Shown piece by piece: positions 949 to 55,639 of a DNA stretch of 64,000 nt (positions are counted from its first letter, which is position 1; each line of letters opens with the position of its first letter). A model generated the notes under the pieces. It was given only the letters and a program-made list of their open reading frames with translations, ran no database searches and was not told the origin of the DNA. Made by a program: the position numbers and the translations under genes. The stretch is from a virus, in UHGV virus genome UHGV-0117634, one strand, 5' to 3'.

Positions 949-1743
949 TTAGTTACGTGCTTCAACATAGTTAACATTCTCATGTGTGATATAATCCTCT
1001 GCAAACTCTTCTGTAGCAGCACCGATATACACACTTGCATCATCACCAAATGTTACGGCTCTGTGGCAATGGCCTTGTAACGGGTGGGTAACTTGAGCGT
1101 TACTTTGATTGTACTTCTCAACCGGAGGGTAACTGGTGTGTACCTTGCCATTACGCTTCACCTTGAGGGTAACTTTATCCTTGCCTACCACGGCAACACC
1201 ATCAAAGTATTGAGGTTCACTAAAGTTTTCCCAACCAGTAACCGGATTAGTCAACTGACTGTACATCTTATCTTCATAGACATACATATAAACGTCAACA
1301 TCTTTCATGGTCTGATTGATGATAGACAGCACAGCCATGCTGTCAAGACCACCAATCCCTGCACCAATCATAGGAAGTCCAACTTTCTTAAGCTGGTTCA
1401 CTTTGCAGTAGTTATTAAGACGCTGCAAAGCTGCTTCTAAAGCATTGTATCGTGCATCTTTACCAGTGATAACCTGAGTGTAAAGGTTAGCAATTCGACC
1501 CTGCTTAAAACGTGCTACAGAGATGTTACCAAGCATAAGATGCTTAGGTTTATGACCTTCACCACCAACTGTAGCATAAACTTCAGCGTCAGTCTCATAA
1601 GCTTTTGGATAACGTTTAGCAATTGTTGCTGCAATACCTGCACCCATTAAGTTCATGCAGTTACAACCGTGACCAATGATATCAAACTTCTTATTATCAA
1701 AGTCTTTAAAGATATCACCTTTAATAATTTTTATGATACCCAT
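949..1743 (-). CDS. macro-domain protein (TARG1/DarG-like ADP-ribose-binding/hydrolase fold) fused to a ~100-aa C-terminal domain of unknown function
   Basis: N-terminal GDIF...DIIGHGCNCMNLMGAGIAATIAKRYP and later GLPMIGAGIGGLD match the two glycine-rich ADP-ribose-binding loops of macro domains; C-terminal part (HPLQGHCHRAV...) unrecognised. Confidence 0.65.
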   Translation of the reverse strand: MGIIKIIKGDIFKDFDNKKFDIIGHGCNCMNLMGAGIAATIAKRYPKAYETDAEVYATVGGEGHKPKHLMLGNISVARFKQGRIANLYTQVITGKDARYNALEAALQRLNNYCKVNQLKKVGLPMIGAGIGGLDSMAVLSIINQTMKDVDVYMYVYEDKMYSQLTNPVTGWENFSEPQYFDGVAVVGKDKVTLKVKRNGKVHTSYPPVEKYNQSNAQVTHPLQGHCHRAVTFGDDASVYIGAATEEFAEDYITHENVNYVEARN

Positions 1744-18527: not shown

Positions 18528-18728
18528 CTACTTAGAAAACTTTTCAATAAGCTTTTTAAGCTTTCCACTCAAATCATGTTTGATATCTAATATCTCAAAG
18601 ATAACCCATACTAGCATAGCTCCAAAGAGAGCACCTTGTTTTAAATCAGTAAACAGGCTAGTAACCATGAATGCCAGAGCAATCATCGGAGCATCTTCAA
18701 CAAAACCATCCCATAAACGTTTAAGCAT
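18528..18728 (-). CDS. small membrane protein (66 aa, two predicted TM helices)
   Basis: Hydrophobic segments MIALAFMVTSLF and ALFGAMLVWVIF; GAGGTG RBS. Confidence 0.45.
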   Translation of the reverse strand: MLKRLWDGFVEDAPMIALAFMVTSLFTDLKQGALFGAMLVWVIFEILDIKHDLSGKLKKLIEKFSK

Positions 18729-18963
18729 TATTCACCTCTGCCATAAAGTTCTGTAGTGTTCCAACAGGTTTCATTTCATTGTCTTCAACCTTCATAATGA
18801 AAGGCATCTGACGAACAGGTATCTTTGCAATATCCATCAGGTCACTTAGCTCATAATCTTTCCCAAGCATTCTTACAACATGGTCTAAGCCACGAGCCTG
18901 AGCAAAGTTTTTAGCAGTCACACACTGTGGGCATCCATCTTTTGAGTAAATTACATAAGTCAT
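18721..18963 (-). CDS. nrdH: glutaredoxin-like protein NrdH
   Basis: CPQC redox motif near N-terminus, ~80 aa, next to nrdB. Confidence 0.7.
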   Translation of the reverse strand: MTYVIYSKDGCPQCVTAKNFAQARGLDHVVRMLGKDYELSDLMDIAKIPVRQMPFIMKVEDNEMKPVGTLQNFMAEVNNA

Positions 18964-20036
18964 TAAGGAACCTCTAAAAATCCTGAATTTAAATCATCAA
19001 CAACAGTATTCAAAAGATACGCACCATTTTGTTGTTCTTGGTTAGCGTTTTGCTCTTTATCAATTTCCATCTTCTTAATCATATATTTCAAAGGTGGTTC
19101 TTTAGGAGCTACGAAGTCTCTTGGAATACCAAACATATCATACAATGGAGCAGCATTGTAGTAAACCCATTCATGAAGAAGTTTTGTATTCAAGCCTACA
19201 ACAGCACGTCCTTCAGAGAAGATATAATAAGACCATTTCTCTTCACTTTCAACTACTTCATCCAGAATTACTTTAATCTCTGGGAGTACTTGACGGAAAG
19301 CTTCTTGCCACTCTTCATCTTTCAAAGTTTCTTTTAATGCTTCGATATCAATCTTTGTGTGAATGATTTCGTCAAGCATAATTTTCTGTACTGCTTGTGC
19401 AATCCCTTGGAATTTATCTTGTGCATCAAGTGCAAAGGTACATGCAAAGGATGCCATGAAGGAAATACCCTCAAGTGCTGTTACTGCAAAGAGACCTTTC
19501 AAGATTACTTTGTGGAAGTGTAAAGGGTCTTTCTCCATTAACTCTTGACGAACATAGTTTAAACGATAGTTAATACCTTCGTCAAGTAATTCTGCCAGTG
19601 CTCTGTTTACAGTCTTCAATCTGTCCTGAACAGCAGTGTTCTGGTTAATCTCATCAAGGATTGTTTCAGGGTTCTTGATACACTGACGAACAATCTCTGA
19701 ATAAGTTAGTGCATGAAGGTTCTCAATTTCTGATTGCTTCATGATAGCAGTTGCATAGATATCATCAGAGATGAATGGTGCAAATGCAAAAGCTAAACTC
19801 TTAGCAACCTGTGTATCTGCTTCCCATTGCCATTTCAGAATCTCAAGCATTACACCAGACATTGACTGAGGGACACTCTCAAAGTCTAAGCGTGATTGCT
19901 CAAATGGAAATTCCTCTTCAGACCAGTCTTGAGCTTTCTGCTGCTTATACAGTTCAAAGATTTTTGGATAGTGTTTATTAAGTGAATCAAAAGTCTTACG
20001 TTCTTCACCTAAGAAGATTGGATGTGAATTAATCAT
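18963..20036 (-). CDS. nrdB: ribonucleotide reductase class I small subunit
   Basis: Ferritin-like di-iron ligand pattern (e.g. LDEIIH), 357 aa, downstream of nrdA. Confidence 0.8.
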   Translation of the reverse strand: MINSHPIFLGEERKTFDSLNKHYPKIFELYKQQKAQDWSEEEFPFEQSRLDFESVPQSMSGVMLEILKWQWEADTQVAKSLAFAFAPFISDDIYATAIMKQSEIENLHALTYSEIVRQCIKNPETILDEINQNTAVQDRLKTVNRALAELLDEGINYRLNYVRQELMEKDPLHFHKVILKGLFAVTALEGISFMASFACTFALDAQDKFQGIAQAVQKIMLDEIIHTKIDIEALKETLKDEEWQEAFRQVLPEIKVILDEVVESEEKWSYYIFSEGRAVVGLNTKLLHEWVYYNAAPLYDMFGIPRDFVAPKEPPLKYMIKKMEIDKEQNANQEQQNGAYLLNTVVDDLNSGFLEVP

Positions 20037-50874: not shown

Positions 50875-50875
<1 letters not shown>

Positions 50876-53112
50876 TATTCATCCTCTGGGTAGCTAGAGT
50901 TTAACAGAATATCTTCCTGACTCTTATCAGTGATATCCACCATCTTAGTAGCAATCTGCTTACCATCCAGATTAAAGGAAACGTTAAGCGTCTGCTTAGT
51001 TTGCAATGGTAGTCCAGAAGGAGTCATCATCATAGGTGTCTGGTTAAACTTGTTTGCAAAGTTATTTAGAGACTCAGACAGGTTGTTCATGATAATATCC
51101 CAATTTGACAAACCATTATCAACTCTCTGAATATTTCCAGAAGTGTCTGTGGTATATTGTGCAAACTGAAGTTGCCCATTCTGGTCAAAGAACATTGGAC
51201 GTTTTGGATTAGTGATTCCTGAGATAGCTTCATTGAAAGGATTAGGTGTGTTAACCTCGTTAAATCTCTTTCCAGCATTCTTGTCAACTGAACCAGATAA
51301 CATTAATGCAGAACCACCTACACCAAGAGCCATTCTGGTTGCTGATACACCAGCCGTTGTAGCTGCTGTTTCTGCTGCTGTAGTTAACCCAAACTTCTGT
51401 GCAATCTTAGCTAAGATACCTTCTTCAAAAATACTCTTGACAAATGCTACAGTACCACCAAAGATTTTAGCAACTTTTGTAATAGCTGCAATTGAGACAC
51501 CAATAGCAGTGAACGTAGCAACTAACTCAGCAGAATCCTTGATTAGTTTCTGTTGACTAGCATCTAATTCCTTGAAATAGCCCATTGAGGTATAGTACAA
51601 TGAAGAAATGCGGTACATGATATCTGTCACGAAGTCTAGAAGGTTACTAGCACCTTTTAAAAGGTAACCAATACCTGTACCAAGTGCTTCAGATGTACCA
51701 AGGGAACCTTGCAAGAACATTGCAACTGAGTTAGAGAGTTGTGAGATACCTTCACTAGAGTTGTTAAACAAAGCTACAAGGGTGTTATCCCACATTGCCT
51801 TTGCTTGACCCATAGAGGTAGCTGTCTGCTTAGAAACTGCATTCATACCACCTGCTGCTTCAACAAGCTCTCTCATTTTTTCTGAGACTTTTGGTAGAAC
51901 GTCTTTTGCAAGAAGCTGACCATCTTTCATCATCTTGTCAAGTTCTTGTGGAGTTTTACCAATAGCATCAGCAAATAACTGAACAGCACCTGCCAAACGG
52001 TCACCTAACTGTCCACGAAGTTCTTCAGCCTGAATCTTACCTTTAGATGCCATTTGCTGGAAAGCAACCATGATACCTTTCAAGTCTTCATCAGAAGCAC
52101 CACGAATACGTGAGAACATAGCAGCATTCTTATAGAACTCTTGAGTTCCTTTAAAACCTAACTCTGGTTGAGCACCAGCAGCGAAGTTTGAGTACTGCTT
52201 CATAGTGTCTGTGTAGTTCTGACCAATCTGGTGAGAGAACGTAGCAGCGAACATTCTAGCTTGCTGTGTATCCCCTCCAAAGATAGCTGTTGAGGCTAAC
52301 TGTGCAGACTGTCTCTTTACACCTGCATCAATAGTCTTCTGAGCTAATTCCAGCATAGCATACGCTGAAACAAAACCACCTACAAGCTGTCTTAGTGAAG
52401 AGTTTGCTCTGTCTTGTAACCAAGCTGACTCTCTGACTGCCTTAAGTCTAGCATTTTCTGCAATAACCCAACGTTTGGTAGTGTCAATGAGTTTCTTGAC
52501 TTCCATCTCATACTCACCAACTTTACCACTACCTTTGTACTTATTATAGATTCCTTGTAAGCTTCCTCTGAAGGAAGTAGCCATTTGGTTACCTTGTCCA
52601 CCAATTGTTTCAAGACGACGAGTCAAACCAGAATAGAAGTTGTTATTAAACATTCTTTCCATTTGTCTTTGAGCAATATCAGGTCTAACTCTAGGTGAAC
52701 CACCACCTCCAACCGGAGGGATAGTATTACCACGGCCTCTACCAACTCCACCACGAACATTGACTTTACCTTCAACATTCATAGCTTGTCTTAGAGCCTT
52801 ATTAATTTCTTTGGCTGTTTTCTTACCCTGTGTTTCTAATCTACGAAGTGATTTTACACCTTGTGAATCTAAATTCATAGCATTGTTTAGGGATTTATTG
52901 ATTCTGCCTGAAGCAGTCTGAGCGTTTTTTACAAGTCTGTTTAGAGCGTCTTGTGAACTTCTATTAGGCTTCACATCAAAGGCTTTATTGATATTGCGTT
53001 CGATACGTTGAGCAGACTGCATAGCCATTTTCTCAACTCTTTGCAAACCCTTAATAACCTTTTCACTGAATCCAAGTTCAACAACAAAACTATCAACTGT
53101 ATATTGTGCCAT
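50875..53112 (-). CDS. tail tape measure protein
   Basis: 745 aa, N-terminal coiled-coil-like charged repeats, central Gly/Ala-rich hydrophobic segments, located after the chaperone pair. Confidence 0.7.
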
Positions 53113-53339
53113 TAAATTTTACCTGCTTTTCTGAGTTCGTTGTAAGCCATTTCTTCTTTATATGACTTCTGGATTTCTAAATATTGACGTAGAGATAATA
53201 AATCAACGAAGGTCATATCAAAAAGTTGGTTGAGTGTTTCTTTACACCCATCCATACCATAAATAGCAAGCACAAATTTCATCTCATCTGCTTCATCATA
53301 AGTTGCCTTTACAGCCCCGTCAGTCAGCGGGGTCTGCAT
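53112..53339 (-). CDS. tail assembly chaperone, frameshift-extension ORF (GT-like)
   Basis: Frame is open ~30 codons upstream of its ATG, overlapping the 3' end of 53348..53749 in the -1 frame. Confidence 0.5.
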   Translation of the reverse strand: MQTPLTDGAVKATYDEADEMKFVLAIYGMDGCKETLNQLFDMTFVDLLSLRQYLEIQKSYKEEMAYNELRKAGKI

Positions 53340-53347
53340 AGAATAAC

Positions 53348-53749
53348 TTAAGCTTCCTGCTGAGAAGTTAGGCTTTTGAAAATGCTTGCCTCGAAAAAAC
53401 TTCCGAAGTTTGCCTCCAAAGCAAAAGCTAAGAAGTCAATAAATTCACCGTAGTTCGCTTGGAAGTAACTATCAATTTTCAGTGGGAAGTCATTAACTGT
53501 TGCCCCCTGAAATAGTGTCTCTGCCATTGCATCAATATCTAGTTCGTCAACCTTTTCAAAGCAAGCTTCAACGAGTTCTTTAAATGGAATTTTAGCTTCC
53601 CCATCTTTAGAGGTTAAACCAGAGAGCATCTGTGCAAATGCTGGTACAACTGCTTTACCAAGTTTCATAGAGATACGGATACCATCTCTTGCTCCAAGAA
53701 GAATAATAGTTACCTTCTTGCCATTAATCATTTTAGTTTCAGTCTTCAT
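53348..53749 (-). CDS. tail assembly chaperone (G-like)
   Basis: 133 aa acidic protein between tube and tape measure genes; contains slippery heptamer near its 3' end. Confidence 0.55.
   Translation of the reverse strand: MKTETKMINGKKVTIILLGARDGIRISMKLGKAVVPAFAQMLSGLTSKDGEAKIPFKELVEACFEKVDELDIDAMAETLFQGATVNDFPLKIDSYFQANYGEFIDFLAFALEANFGSFFEASIFKSLTSQQEA
53393..53400 (-). other. candidate -1 programmed ribosomal frameshift site (T_TTT_TTC slippery heptamer)
   Basis: In the chaperone frame ...GGA AGT TTT TTC GAG...; a -1 slip reads TTT TTT CGA GGC AAG... which is the frame of 53112..53339. Confidence 0.45.
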
Positions 53750-53782: not shown

Positions 53783-53815
53783 AAAAGGGGAAGACCTTTT
53801 ACAGTCTCCCCCTTA
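53783..53815 (-). terminator. terminator-like hairpin after tail tube gene
   Basis: Plus AAAAGGGGAAGACCTTTTACAGTCTCCCCCTTATT; stem with one bulge, T-rich tail on minus strand. Confidence 0.4.
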
Positions 53816-53825
53816 TTAGGATTTG

Positions 53826-54272
53826 TTAAACGCTTGACGCAGGGATTGTTGAAGTGTAGTCTAACTTCTCACAACCGAAAATCCAAGTTTTCGAGTTCTG
53901 GTCACGACCTAGCTCAATCTGTGGAAGCTCTTGCAACCAAGCATTAATACCTGTTGCCAGAACTGAACCAGATGGGTCGTAAATTACAAAGTTAGATGAG
54001 ATATCTTCTTCAAGTTCCATGTCATCTTGTTTAGCTTGAATTGCAGAAAGCATCTGGTTTGATAGAGAAGTCTGCATTAGCTCAATCTCAATCGTACCTG
54101 TCTTGTCTGCATTTCTTGTCAGAGCTACTTGACCACCTGCACCTACAACTGGCGTAACAAGTGGAGAAGTTCTCTGAAGACGCAAGAATGAGTCTGGTGC
54201 AAAACCTTCAATGGCAATGCCATTCCAGCTACAAACTACATCTTTAGGGGAATATTGCTGATACATAGCCAT
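53826..54272 (-). CDS. tail tube protein
   Basis: 148 aa, immediately after the sheath-like gene. Confidence 0.5.
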   Translation of the reverse strand: MAMYQQYSPKDVVCSWNGIAIEGFAPDSFLRLQRTSPLVTPVVGAGGQVALTRNADKTGTIEIELMQTSLSNQMLSAIQAKQDDMELEEDISSNFVIYDPSGSVLATGINAWLQELPQIELGRDQNSKTWIFGCEKLDYTSTIPASSV

Positions 54273-54286
54273 TCCTAATTACTCCT

Positions 54287-55639
54287 TTATTCGTAAGCCA
54301 CTGTGCCTTTCAAGTCAACATCCAAGATAGCCCCTGCAAGAATACCGTGGAAGGTAACGTCTTTCAGGATACGTGCTTTCTTATCTGCCAATGCAACTTG
54401 TGAGGCTTTAGGAACAGTAACAGTGTAAGTTGACAAAAAGTTTCTGTTAACTGCTCGCTGAAGAGATGTTTCAATGACCTGACGAATACGGGTAATACCA
54501 GTATCATCATAAGTAATCTTACCACCCTTCTGATTAATTAGCAAGTCTCTCAGAGATGTTTTCAAATCAGATTCAAGCCAATCAACACCACGTACAATAT
54601 CAATCCATTCACCACCAGAAGTGATACCTCTACGCACTACAGGAACCCCACCATCGAGGTCAATGAAATTACAGCTACGGGTATCCAAAGCTGACTTCTG
54701 AATGCTTGTCAGTGGTCTCTGGTTAGCAGGTTGTAGAGATGCTGCAACACCAGTTAATTGAGCGTTACCCCAAGCAATTGAACCTGCATCATATGGAGCA
54801 CCATATGCGATGTAAGCCATTTCTGGGTAGTCATACTCGGCTGTGTGATGCCACAAGCAAACTGTACGAGTGTACTTTCTCTTAGCTAACTGTGCCGGAA
54901 CATCTGTTGCAGAGGTCAAATCAGTGCCTTGCAGAGCCTTAACGTCAGCATTAGCTGTGAAGAAAATCTTCTTACGAGCCTGAATCTCTGAAGCCATTGC
55001 CAAGACAAACTGTTGAGTTCTGTCTTCTGCTGAGATGAAGTACCAATCTGTTGAATATGCTTCAATGGATGCCAGAGCAGCGGAAGCCGTGTCAGCAGTT
55101 GTTGCTGCAATAGATGTTGTAGGTGTAATAGACGTTACTTTTACGAAGTCATTATCACCAGCTTTAGTAATAATCATCGTCGCAGAAGCACCAGTACCTG
55201 TTACACTAACATTAACACCATCTTTAATTGTTGGGCTTGCTTCAATCTGTGATTTAAACTCATTCAAGACAATAAGTGCTGTGTCGTTTTCTTTTGCAGT
55301 GTACTGGAATGGCTGAGAAACACCACCACCGATAGCAACTGTCAATGAATATTCATTTCCTTCAGCCACTGTGTCAGGAATAGAAACAGTATATTGCATA
55401 GTTCTTCTACCAATATACAGTTGAGTTACTTTTGGAGTTTGGCTCCATAGCTGTTTTGCAGCTTTATACGCAGCAGTACTTTCATCAAAGTCTTCAGCTA
55501 CTTCTGTTAATGAAGTATAACCACGGATTCTTTCTTCAAAGTTATCTGTTGAAGCAAGGAATAATGGTAAACCAAAACCTTCTCTTGTAGTTCCTGCTGT
55601 GTTCAATGTAATATCTACATTAACAATTGGATTCCACAT
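54287..55639 (-). CDS. tail sheath protein
   Basis: 450 aa, position between head-completion genes and tube gene. Confidence 0.55.
   Translation of the reverse strand: MWNPIVNVDITLNTAGTTREGFGLPLFLASTDNFEERIRGYTSLTEVAEDFDESTAAYKAAKQLWSQTPKVTQLYIGRRTMQYTVSIPDTVAEGNEYSLTVAIGGGVSQPFQYTAKENDTALIVLNEFKSQIEASPTIKDGVNVSVTGTGASATMIITKAGDNDFVKVTSITPTTSIAATTADTASAALASIEAYSTDWYFISAEDRTQQFVLAMASEIQARKKIFFTANADVKALQGTDLTSATDVPAQLAKRKYTRTVCLWHHTAEYDYPEMAYIAYGAPYDAGSIAWGNAQLTGVAASLQPANQRPLTSIQKSALDTRSCNFIDLDGGVPVVRRGITSGGEWIDIVRGVDWLESDLKTSLRDLLINQKGGKITYDDTGITRIRQVIETSLQRAVNRNFLSTYTVTVPKASQVALADKKARILKDVTFHGILAGAILDVDLKGTVAYE

What the first reader, a model, noticed from the sequence alone, without database searches (positions are those of the whole stretch)
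53112..53749. Predicted -1 programmed ribosomal frameshift joining the two tail assembly chaperone ORFs
Near the 3' end of the 53348..53749 gene the frame reads AGT TTT TTC, giving the classic slippery heptamer T_TTT_TTC. The -1 frame from that point is open and runs straight into the 53112..53339 ORF. This is the conserved G/GT chaperone arrangement found upstream of tape measure genes in long-tailed phages.
Basis: partly seen in the sequence, partly recalled or inferred. Interest (0 to 1): 0.5.

Follow-up and report, generated by a model that had tools for sequence, protein, structure and literature searches.

The report
Tail chaperone -1 frameshift, already annotated
This is the ordinary programmed -1 ribosomal frameshift that lets a Felix O1-like phage make a short and a long form of its tail assembly chaperone; the sequence evidence is very strong, but the same site is already annotated and published for close relatives.

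Summary
On the minus strand the 133-codon chaperone gene (53749..53348) reads AGT TTT TTC. That puts the heptamer T_TTT_TTC at 53399..53393, 14 codons before the stop. From there the -1 frame is open for 93 codons, runs through ORF 53339..53112, and stops at a TAA overlapping the tape measure ATG. The predicted fusion is 212 aa.

The window is a Mooglevirus-like myophage, 99% identical to Shigella phages Henu11 and Sf14. The gene order is sheath, tube, chaperone, tape measure.

A heptamer alone means little: there are 44 in-frame ones in this window. Comparison with relatives is what decides it.
- 52 of 53 related loci, forming 16 lineages down to 28% protein identity, keep exactly TTTTTTC in frame.
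- All of those have a 79-106 codon -1 extension.
- In several lineages no start codon precedes the conserved T core.
- No downstream RNA structure is conserved.
- An SD-like GGAGG lies 13 nt upstream of the heptamer in 11 of 16 lineages.

The finding is not new. Moogle, Mijalis, Michonne, Mordin and Meda already carry joined CDSs with this same junction, and two genome announcements mention the frameshift. It has not been shown experimentally in this group. Interest is low.

The parts
53348..53749 (-). 0-frame tail assembly chaperone gene ('G', 133 aa, 14.7 kDa)
   Evidence: ORF; translation; Pfam PF21822 Phage_TAC_15 at 72.9 bits against a 22-bit cutoff; phrog_1613 and phrog_3840 'tail assembly chaperone'.
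53393..53399 (-). Slippery heptamer T_TTT_TTC (Phe-Phe; P-site TTT, A-site TTC)
   Evidence: Identical and in phase in 10/10 GenBank relatives and in 42/43 IMG/VR loci; the exception is cut off by its contig end. The Ser-Phe-Phe codons are AGT/TCT TTT TTC in 16/16 lineage representatives.
53112..53393 (-). -1 frame segment of the fusion ('T' part: 93 codons plus TAA). The annotated stand-alone ORF 53339..53112 is its last 75 codons. Full GT CDS = join(53749..53393, 53393..53112) on the minus strand, 212 aa, 23.8 kDa
   Evidence: phrog_4963. The T parts of 12 lineages align with a shared core (A2). The equivalent fusions of Moogle/Mijalis and Meda match deposited proteins exactly.
53351..53435 (-). 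Window in which a -1 shift can give the long product, from the last -1-frame stop (TGA 53438..53436) to the last sense codon of G
   Evidence: It holds one heptamer. The lesser tetramers are T_TTT (53425), T_TTG (53419), A_AAC (53410) and T_TTC (53380).
53413..53417 (-). GGAGG, a Shine-Dalgarno-like motif 13 nt 5' of the heptamer (14 nt before its second base); a possible stimulator, inferred only
   Evidence: It falls in the 6-17 nt interval that Sharma et al. 2014 treat as experimentally stimulatory. It is present in 11/16 lineages against 9.8% of background positions, but overlaps conserved residues L-E-A and is absent in Kolesnikvirus and 4 other lineages.
50875..53112 (-). Tape measure protein gene (745 aa); its ATG overlaps the GT stop (TAATG)
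   Evidence: Pfam TMP_3 at 4.3e-17; phrog_4036 over the full length.
53826..54272 (-). Tail tube gene (148 aa)
   Evidence: Pfam KPP10_Orf10; phrog_280; named tail tube in the Sf14 structure paper.
54287..55639 (-). Tail sheath gene (450 aa)
   Evidence: Pfam DUF3383; phrog_205 'tail sheath', 1.6e-118.
53785..53814 (-). Intrinsic terminator-like hairpin between the tube gene and the chaperone gene (12-bp stem followed by a T run)
   Evidence: Annotated as a terminator at the same place in Mijalis, wV8 and Meda.

Best explanation
This is a G/GT-type programmed -1 ribosomal frameshift in the tail assembly chaperone gene of a Felix O1-like (Mooglevirus) myophage. Most ribosomes translate 53749..53348 and stop, giving the 133-aa chaperone. 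A minority pause with tRNA-Phe on UUU (P site) and UUC (A site). Both tRNAs slip back one base onto U_UU and U_UU, and decoding resumes at CGA. This gives a 212-aa protein with the first 119 residues of G fused to a 93-residue T part (...GSFF|RGKHFQ...). By analogy with lambda G/GT and P2 E/E+E', the shared N-terminal part would bind the tape measure protein and the T part would recruit tube subunits; both would leave the finished tail. Shown here: the site, its phase, the open frame, the protein families, the deep nucleotide-level conservation, and the lack of an independent start in many lineages. Inferred: that slippage really occurs, its efficiency (probably a few percent), any help from the upstream GGAGG, and the division of labour between the two parts.
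For: (1) Anatomy. (2) Identity and position: TAC family, and placement between the tube and tape measure genes. (3) Conservation: TTTTTTC is in phase with a 92-94 codon -1 extension ending at the tape measure start in 10/10 relatives from Mooglevirus, Felixounavirus, Suspvirus, Kolesnikvirus and Arno18. The same holds in 42/43 IMG/VR loci down to 28% identity, with 79-106 codon extensions. (4) Selection on nucleotides rather than only on protein: all 16 lineage representatives use [AGT or TCT] TTT TTC. The Ser codon changed family yet kept its final T, whereas the Phe codon three codons upstream varies (11 TTC, 5 TTT). This phage's codon usage gives P = 0.14 per lineage for that choice. In distant blastn the only DNA still alignable with Kolesnikvirus is window 53410..53370, centred on the site. 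(5) T cannot be made on its own in many lineages. The first ATG/GTG/TTG in the -1 frame is at extension codon 56 of 94 (Kolesnikvirus), 62 of 98 (L042) and 81 of 106 (L053), beyond part or all of the conserved T core. P(open by chance) across 8 deep lineages is about 1e-19. (6) U_UU.U_UU.C belongs to the H_HH.U_UU.Y class, which is among the most efficient heptamers measured in E. coli, and it is used by IS elements. (7) Independent annotators reached the same junction (papers). (8) Peptides of the T ORF were seen by MS in Sf14 particle preparations, so this frame is translated.
Against: There is no direct evidence of the fusion protein in any Ounavirinae phage. In this window and its nearest relatives the T ORF does have an ATG (53339), so the sequence alone does not exclude separate translation. 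In the Sf14 virion MS the T-ORF product was scored as detected and G as not detected. If the only source of T peptides were GT, G-part peptides might have been expected as well. Peptide-level data are not in the paper or its supplement, and the search database lacked the fusion. No stimulatory RNA structure was found, so efficiency may be low. The lineage counts are not phylogenetically independent. One of the two IMG/VR search patterns (NF[GS]SFFE) required the Ser-Phe-Phe residues, though not their codons.
Confidence: 0.9

Rival explanations
1. These are two separate genes with no recoding. The 75-aa ORF is translated from its own ATG at 53339, perhaps by termination-reinitiation after the G stop 8 nt upstream, and the heptamer is incidental.
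For: An ATG exists at 53339 here, and at a nearby but different position in Felixounavirus and Suspvirus. RefSeq annotates two separate genes in Sf14, wV8 and SUSP1. Sf14 particle MS scored the T ORF product but not G. The negative control at 18993 shows that a heptamer plus an open -1 frame can arise from an ordinary overlapping gene pair.
Against: No SD-like motif lies within 4-16 nt of ATG 53339 (GGAAG sits 13 nt away). The start position is not conserved, and Kolesnikvirus, L042, L043 and L053 have no start at all before the T core. The -1 frame stays open upstream of every candidate start in 16/16 lineages. The heptamer's synonymous positions are invariant, which an incidental site would not show. 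As an additional minor route in the Moogle/Felix clade it cannot be excluded.
Confidence: 0.06
2. The cause is transcriptional slippage rather than ribosomal slippage. RNA polymerase stutters on the T6 run and adds one U to a fraction of transcripts, which standard translation then reads into the T frame.
For: The site is a homopolymer run. Slippage-prone runs are known to give frame changes in bacterial and phage genes (review PMC5009743). An extra U would give the same protein sequence...SFF(F)RGK or very nearly.
Against: The run is only 6 T and is the only run of 6 or more A/T in the gene pair. From established knowledge, efficient bacterial transcriptional slippage generally needs about 8-9 or more identical bases. 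The last base is C in 16/16 lineages, so the run never grows to T7 although TTT is the commoner Phe codon here (55%). That fits selection for U_UU.Y tRNA re-pairing and against a longer run. This was not tested directly.
Confidence: 0.03
3. The -1 shift happens at another motif in the 85-nt overlap window, for example the tetramer T_TTC at 53381..53378, rather than at the heptamer.
For: U_UU.C is the second-best tetramer in E. coli. This copy lies in the conserved stretch GCAAGCATTTTCAAAA.
Against: Tetramers reach roughly ten-fold lower levels than the best heptamers. This tetramer is absent in Arno18 and in L042-L053, which all keep the heptamer.
Confidence: 0.01

Closest known systems
Annotated tape measure chaperone frameshift of Citrobacter phages Moogle, Mijalis, Michonne and Mordin and Salmonella phage Meda (AIW03804.1 / ARB06563.1 / YP_009145710.1, YP_009177317.1, AXY86324.1)
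   Same: Same gene, same heptamer, same junction. The fusions I derived for Moogle/Mijalis and Meda at this slip site are identical to the deposited proteins. The CDSs are two-piece joins. The frameshift is mentioned in the genome announcements PMC4319497 and PMC5543628. Moogle and Mijalis are 91.6% identical to the window over this region.
   Different: The window's own 212-aa sequence is not in the protein collection. Its nearest relatives (Sf14, Henu11 and others, 99%) annotate two separate ORFs or hypothetical proteins. All of these are predictions, not experiments.
Bacteriophage P2 E / E+E' (contractile tail)
   Same: A -1 shift near the end of a small gene lying between the tube gene (FII) and the tape measure gene (T). 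The slip run is almost the same, TTTTTTG against TTTTTTC here. There is no downstream stimulatory structure. Products are a short and a long protein from one start (91 and 142 aa) (PMC3091744).
   Different: I found no sequence similarity: the window protein falls in Pfam Phage_TAC_15 and has no hit to a P2 E family. The last base is C rather than G. The products are larger (133 and 212 aa). For P2 the paper cites primary work; here nothing has been tested experimentally.
Bacteriophage lambda G / GT, the founding case of the conserved frameshift of Xu, Hendrix and Duda 2004
   Same: Same logic and same position upstream of the tape measure gene. In lambda, G binds the tape measure protein, the T part binds the major tail protein, and both leave the tail (review PMC5009743).
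   Different: Lambda has a non-contractile tail and, from established knowledge, uses G_GGA_AAG. There is no detectable sequence homology here.
E. coli dnaX and IS-element -1 frameshift signals with an upstream Shine-Dalgarno-like stimulator
   Same: [quoted passage not shown] It is present in 11/16 lineages.
   Different: There is no downstream hairpin or pseudoknot. The SD-like motif is missing in 5 lineages that still keep the heptamer, so it cannot be essential.

Membership tests
G/GT-type tail assembly chaperone pair with programmed -1 frameshift (Xu, Hendrix and Duda 2004) | Lies between the major tail/tube gene and the tape measure gene, in the same orientation | tested here: met
   Order is sheath 55639..54287, tube 54272..53826, G 53749..53348, T ..53112, tape measure 53112..50875, all on the minus strand. 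The tape measure gene is also downstream in the distant loci L042, L043 and L046.
G/GT-type tail assembly chaperone pair with programmed -1 frameshift (Xu, Hendrix and Duda 2004) | The second reading frame is -1 relative to the first and is open from the slip site to its stop | tested here: met
   93 open codons from 53393 to TAA 53114..53112; the +1 frame is closed. P(open by chance) is about 4e-6.
G/GT-type tail assembly chaperone pair with programmed -1 frameshift (Xu, Hendrix and Duda 2004) | [quoted passage not shown] | tested here: met
   T_TTT_TTC at 53399..53393, 14 codons before the stop, and the only heptamer in the 85-nt shift window. This motif class is efficient in E. coli.
G/GT-type tail assembly chaperone pair with programmed -1 frameshift (Xu, Hendrix and Duda 2004) | Slip site and two-frame arrangement conserved among diverged relatives | tested here: met
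   52 of 53 related loci and 16/16 lineage representatives. Synonymous positions are invariant.
G/GT-type tail assembly chaperone pair with programmed -1 frameshift (Xu, Hendrix and Duda 2004) | The downstream part has no translation start of its own | tested here: inconclusive
   In this window an ATG exists at 53339, without a well-placed SD. Across lineages the start is not conserved, and it is absent before the T core in Kolesnikvirus, L042, L043 and L053.
G/GT-type tail assembly chaperone pair with programmed -1 frameshift (Xu, Hendrix and Duda 2004) | A fusion protein is made at a low fixed ratio, and both products are needed for tail assembly | not testable with these tools
   This needs proteomics, a reporter assay or genetics. 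The only relevant data are that Sf14 particle MS saw the T ORF product but not G, and that Felix O1 virion MS listed neither.
Pfam PF21822 Phage_TAC_15 | Scores above the family's gathering threshold | tested here: met
   72.9 bits against a 22-bit cutoff, residues 9-122 on profile positions 1-124 of 127.
dnaX/IS-type stimulated -1 frameshift signal | Upstream SD-like sequence at stimulatory spacing | tested here: inconclusive
   It is present in the window (GGAGG, 14 nt before the second base) and in 11/16 lineages against a 9.8% background. It is confounded with conserved residues and absent in 5 lineages.
dnaX/IS-type stimulated -1 frameshift signal | Downstream hairpin or pseudoknot 5-9 nt after the motif | tested here: not met
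   The 53 nt after the site give z = +0.28. The consensus fold of 8 lineages is -0.06 kcal/mol with no covariation. Eight distant lineages give z from -1.2 to +1.1. There is no Rfam match.
Programmed transcriptional slippage site | A long homopolymer run, about 8-9 or more identical bases in bacterial cases (established knowledge) | tested here: not met
   The run is T6, capped by G and C, and never extends to T7 in 16 lineages.

The most novel reading that the evidence does not exclude
In Moogleviruses the T-containing product may not be a transient chaperone as in lambda. It may stay with the particle, or be made separately from ATG 53339 as a small virion-associated protein alongside the frameshift product. 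The basis is the Sf14 particle proteome, which scored the T ORF product as present and G as absent. A weaker second reading is that the upstream GGAGG is a genuine stimulator in a phage chaperone frameshift, a class usually described as lacking stimulators.
Probability: 0.1. Interest if true: 0.35.

Novelty: already known. Interest (0 to 1): 0.15.

Why it matters
The practical value is in annotation. In the phages closest to this window (Sf14, Henu11 and other Shigella phages, all 99% identical) and in RefSeq entries for wV8 and SUSP1, the pair is recorded as two separate genes. In Kolesnikvirus records the T part is truncated to 37 aa or missing. All of these should carry one extra joined CDS. 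The comparison also shows that the seven nucleotides TTTTTTC are among the most deeply conserved bases of this chaperone family, surviving where protein identity has fallen to 28%. That makes them a reliable landmark for finding the chaperone pair and the tape measure gene in uncultured phage contigs. Nothing here changes what is known about frameshifting or tail assembly.

Tried and rejected
(1) A downstream stimulatory structure. I folded the 53 and 93 nt after the site, made a consensus fold of 8 lineages, folded 60-nt segments of 8 distant lineages, and ran an Rfam scan. Nothing was found at the right distance.

(2) The hairpin at 53336..53312. It is real in the fold and shows one compensatory change in SUSP1, but it starts 56 nt after the heptamer. 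That is too far to sit at the ribosome entrance during slippage, and it is not kept in Kolesnikvirus or Arno18.

(3) Treating heptamer plus open -1 frame as sufficient evidence. I rejected this after the window-wide count and the 18993 control.

(4) Sequence search of the fusion against solved structures gave no meaningful hit.

(5) Peptide-level MS evidence in the Sf14 paper's supplement: none is held.

(6) Mentions of the frameshift in the Felix O1 genome paper and the VpaE1 paper: there are none.

(7) The pheL frameshifting paper concerns +1 shifting at CCC_UGA and is not relevant.

(8) I did not run structure prediction or the large protein-database searches. Family membership and prior annotation were already settled by Pfam/PHROGs and the exact-sequence look-up.
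Full report
WHAT THE SEQUENCE SHOWS. All genes in this part of the window are on the minus strand. The ORF 53749..53348 (133 codons) reads ...GGA AGT TTT TTC GAG GCA... The run TTTTTTC at 53399..53393 is therefore phased as T_TTT_TTC, an X_XXY_YYZ heptamer, with 14 sense codons left before TAA 53350..53348. Stepping back one base after TTC gives CGA GGC AAG CAT TTT CAA... That frame is open for 93 codons. The last A of that stop is the first base of the tape measure ATG. The fusion would be 212 aa (23.8 kDa), against 133 aa (14.7 kDa) for the 0-frame product. The +1 frame closes after 7 codons. The last stop in the -1 frame upstream is TGA 53438..53436. A productive shift must therefore occur within 85 nt (53435..53351), and TTTTTTC is the only heptamer there.

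IS IT MORE THAN CHANCE? On its own, barely. A crude gene set for the window has 44 in-frame X_XXY_YYZ heptamers in 88 ORFs. Two of them are followed by a -1 frame that runs past the 0-frame stop. The second, T_TTA_AAT at 18993, is a false positive. Its 'extension' is the next gene, with its own ATG overlapping the stop (TAATG), a GAGG ribosome-binding site, and a CPQC glutaredoxin-like product. Frame openness is more informative. Stops occur at 12.5% per codon in the -1 frame of this phage's long ORFs, and the longest open run elsewhere is 46 codons. Within this single sequence, however, only the 18 codons between the heptamer and ATG 53339 need explaining, and P for those is about 0.09. The case has to be made by comparison.

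WHAT THE LOCUS IS. The region is 99% identical to Shigella phages Henu11, Sf14 and related phages, and 92% identical to Citrobacter phages Moogle and Mijalis. These are Ounavirinae of the genus Mooglevirus, Felix O1-like myoviruses of about 88 kb. The gene identifications are:
- 55639..54287: tail sheath (DUF3383; phrog_205).
- 54272..53826: tail tube (KPP10_Orf10; phrog_280).
- 53749..53348: tail assembly chaperone (Pfam Phage_TAC_15, 72.9 bits against a 22-bit cutoff).
- The 75-aa ORF: phrog_4963, 'tail assembly chaperone'.
- 53112..50875: tape measure protein (TMP_3; phrog_4036).
A terminator-like hairpin (53814..53785) separates the tube gene from the chaperone gene. Relatives annotate a terminator at the same place.

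COMPARATIVE TEST. I took ten GenBank relatives from Mooglevirus, Felixounavirus, Suspvirus, Kolesnikvirus and the unclassified Pectobacterium phage Arno18. Their chaperone identity to the window goes down to 45%. All have TTTTTTC in the same phase, with a 92-94 codon -1 extension that ends at or just before the tape measure start. An IMG/VR scan with an alignment of the 0-frame proteins returned 43 loci. Of these, 42 have the same heptamer in phase with a 79-106 codon extension; the remaining one is cut off by its contig end. Collapsing everything at 93% local identity leaves 16 lineages, some with only 28-35% protein identity to the window.

In all 16 lineages the Ser-Phe-Phe codons are [AGT or TCT] TTT TTC. 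In two lineages the serine codon has moved to the other codon family but still ends in T. The Phe codon three positions upstream varies freely (TTC 11, TTT 5). This phage's own codon usage gives 0.14 for that codon choice per lineage. In a sensitive blastn against Kolesnikvirus genomes, the only DNA that still aligns is window 53410..53370, the slip site and the 23 nt after it.

Two caveats apply. The lineages share ancestry, so multiplied probabilities overstate the significance. One of the two search patterns (NF[GS]SFFE) required the Ser-Phe-Phe residues, though not their codons.

CAN THE T PART BE MADE ON ITS OWN? In the window there is an ATG at extension codon 19 (53339), with no SD-like motif in the usual place. 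In Felixounavirus and Suspvirus the first ATG is at codon 14, and in Arno18 there is a GTG at codon 24. The first ATG/GTG/TTG comes much later in other lineages: codon 56 of 94 in Kolesnikvirus, 62 of 98 in L042, 36 of 103 in L043, and 81 of 106 in L053. The extensions are homologous proteins sharing a core of the form [FW]x[FIL]xx[IV]Y...[CN]K[ED][ST]L...M[TS][FL]x[DE][LF] (A2). In these lineages that core lies partly or wholly upstream of any possible start. The chance that the frame is open up to the first start is 0.001 or less in three lineages, and about 1e-19 over eight deep lineages. A frameshift is the only route to the T part that all lineages share.

MECHANISM. Both slip codons are Phe. 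After a one-base backward move, the P-site and A-site tRNA-Phe re-pair with UUU and UUU. In the systematic E. coli measurements of Sharma et al. 2014, H_HH.U_UU.Y heptamers, which include U_UU.U_UU.C, are among the most efficient. U_UU.U_UU.C exceeds 0.1% even without a stimulator and is used by IS elements.

I found no stimulatory structure:
- The 53 nt after the site fold no better than shuffles (z = +0.28).
- A consensus fold of eight lineages has essentially no energy and no covarying pair.
- Eight distant lineages give z-scores between -1.2 and +1.1.
- Rfam has no match.
This matches P2 E+E', which also lacks a downstream structure.

One possible helper exists. [quoted passage not shown] An SD-like motif is there in 11 of 16 lineages, against 9.8% of background positions. 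It coincides with conserved residues (L-E-A or K-E-N) and is missing in five lineages that keep the heptamer. I therefore rate it as plausible and non-essential. The roles of the two products, with the shared part binding the tape measure protein and the T part recruiting tube subunits, are carried over from lambda (review PMC5009743) and were not tested here.

RIVALS. Separate translation of the 75-aa ORF cannot be excluded as an extra route in the Moogle/Felix clade. The Sf14 particle proteome gives it some support, since gp42 (the T ORF) was scored as detected and gp41 (G) as not detected. That search database did not contain the fusion, so GT-derived T peptides would have been credited to gp42. 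No peptide list is held. Felix O1 virion proteomics listed gp63, gp64 and gp67, whose masses fit sheath, tube and tape measure, but neither of the two genes between tube and tape measure. Transcriptional slippage is unlikely on a run of six T that never lengthens to seven in 16 lineages. A shift at the tetramer T_TTC (53381..53378) is unlikely because tetramers are about ten-fold weaker and this one is not conserved in the distant lineages.

COMPARISON WITH WHAT IS KNOWN, AND NOVELTY. This is a member of the conserved tail-chaperone frameshift class of Xu, Hendrix and Duda 2004. The nearest mechanistic precedent is P2 E/E+E', which has a contractile tail, the slip run TTTTTTG, and no stimulator. 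The specific site is already on record:
- Mijalis and Meda carry two-piece joined CDSs; Meda's is labelled 'Tape measure chaperone frameshift product'.
- The fusion sequences I derived at this junction for Moogle/Mijalis and Meda are exact matches to AIW03804.1 / ARB06563.1 / YP_009145710.1 and AXY86324.1.
- Michonne and Mordin have 212-aa versions as well.
- The Moogle and Mijalis genome announcements both mention the frameshift.
The window's own fusion sequence is not in the protein collection. Its closest relatives annotate two separate ORFs. For this phage the finding therefore amounts to an annotation correction.

VERDICT. It is already known at the level of annotation and has not been shown experimentally in this phage group. 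Interest is low. The cheapest decisive test is a re-search of the public Sf14 MS data for the two fusion-specific tryptic peptides.

Noticed in passing
window 18721..20036, minus strand (heptamer at 18993..18987): A second in-frame heptamer, T_TTA_AAT, lies 8 codons before the stop of ORF 20036..18963 and has an 88-codon open -1 frame. It is not a frameshift candidate. The extension is the next gene (ATG 18963 overlapping the stop as TAATG, with GAGG 7 nt upstream), encoding a small CPQC glutaredoxin/NrdH-like protein. It is a useful negative control.
   Followed up: yes
window 53112..53339 (homologue of Sf14 FDI99_gp115, gp42): In the published Sf14 particle proteome the T ORF product was detected and the upstream chaperone gp41 was not (PMC11821841, Table 1). 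This is unexpected for a chaperone, and odd if T exists only as a fusion. Felix O1 virion proteomics detected neither. No peptide-level data are held.
   Followed up: partly
window 53312..53336, minus strand: There is a hairpin CAGACCCCG-CTGACTGA-CGGGGCTG inside the T coding part, starting 56 nt after the heptamer. SUSP1 and L015 have CCCCA...TGGGG, a change on both sides that keeps the pair. wV8 has a different 8-bp stem (CUCUACAG...CUGUAGAG, z = -2.7) at the same place. Kolesnikvirus and Arno18 do not keep it. It is too far away to stimulate slippage, and its role, if any, is unknown.
   Followed up: partly
window 53370..53410, minus strand: This is an island of nucleotide conservation. It is the only stretch of the chaperone pair that blastn still aligns with Kolesnikvirus (Erwinia and Hafnia phages), at 90% over 41 nt. 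It covers the heptamer and the dual-coding stretch GARGCAAGCATTTTCAAAA.
   Followed up: yes
L008 (phiEa104) 1089..1202; L009 (SPARTY) and L010 (Tian) 970..1205; L001 (Sf14), L003 (wV8), L004 (SUSP1): Public annotation is inconsistent. phiEa104 annotates only a 37-aa fragment of the T part. SPARTY and Tian leave the 236-nt T region unannotated. RefSeq Sf14, wV8 and SUSP1 list two separate chaperone genes without a join. Moogle, Mijalis, Michonne, Mordin and Meda have the joined CDS.
   Followed up: yes
window 53785..53814, minus strand: A strong terminator-like hairpin (12-bp stem followed by a T run) lies between the tube gene and the chaperone gene. It would lower transcription into the chaperone, tape measure and baseplate genes relative to sheath and tube. 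It is annotated as a terminator in Mijalis, wV8 and Meda.
   Followed up: partly
protein cluster 2 (P0022): A 132-aa Felix O1-type chaperone is deposited under Staphylococcus hyicus (WP_252560994.1), and several more under E. coli and Shigella genome assemblies. These are probably phage contamination or carry-over in those assemblies rather than prophages.
   Followed up: no
whole window: ARAGORN finds no tRNA gene in the 64 kb, although relatives encode 22-26 tRNAs. The window therefore excludes the tRNA cluster of the roughly 88-kb genome. No phage tRNA-Phe gene lies in the window.
   Followed up: partly
L042, L043, L046 (IMG/VR): In some distant lineages the gene upstream of the chaperone is not a tube gene. 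L042 has a Baseplate_J-like protein there, and L043 and L046 have a DUF5681 protein. The tape measure gene still follows the chaperone pair. The link to the tape measure gene is therefore the more stable one.
   Followed up: partly
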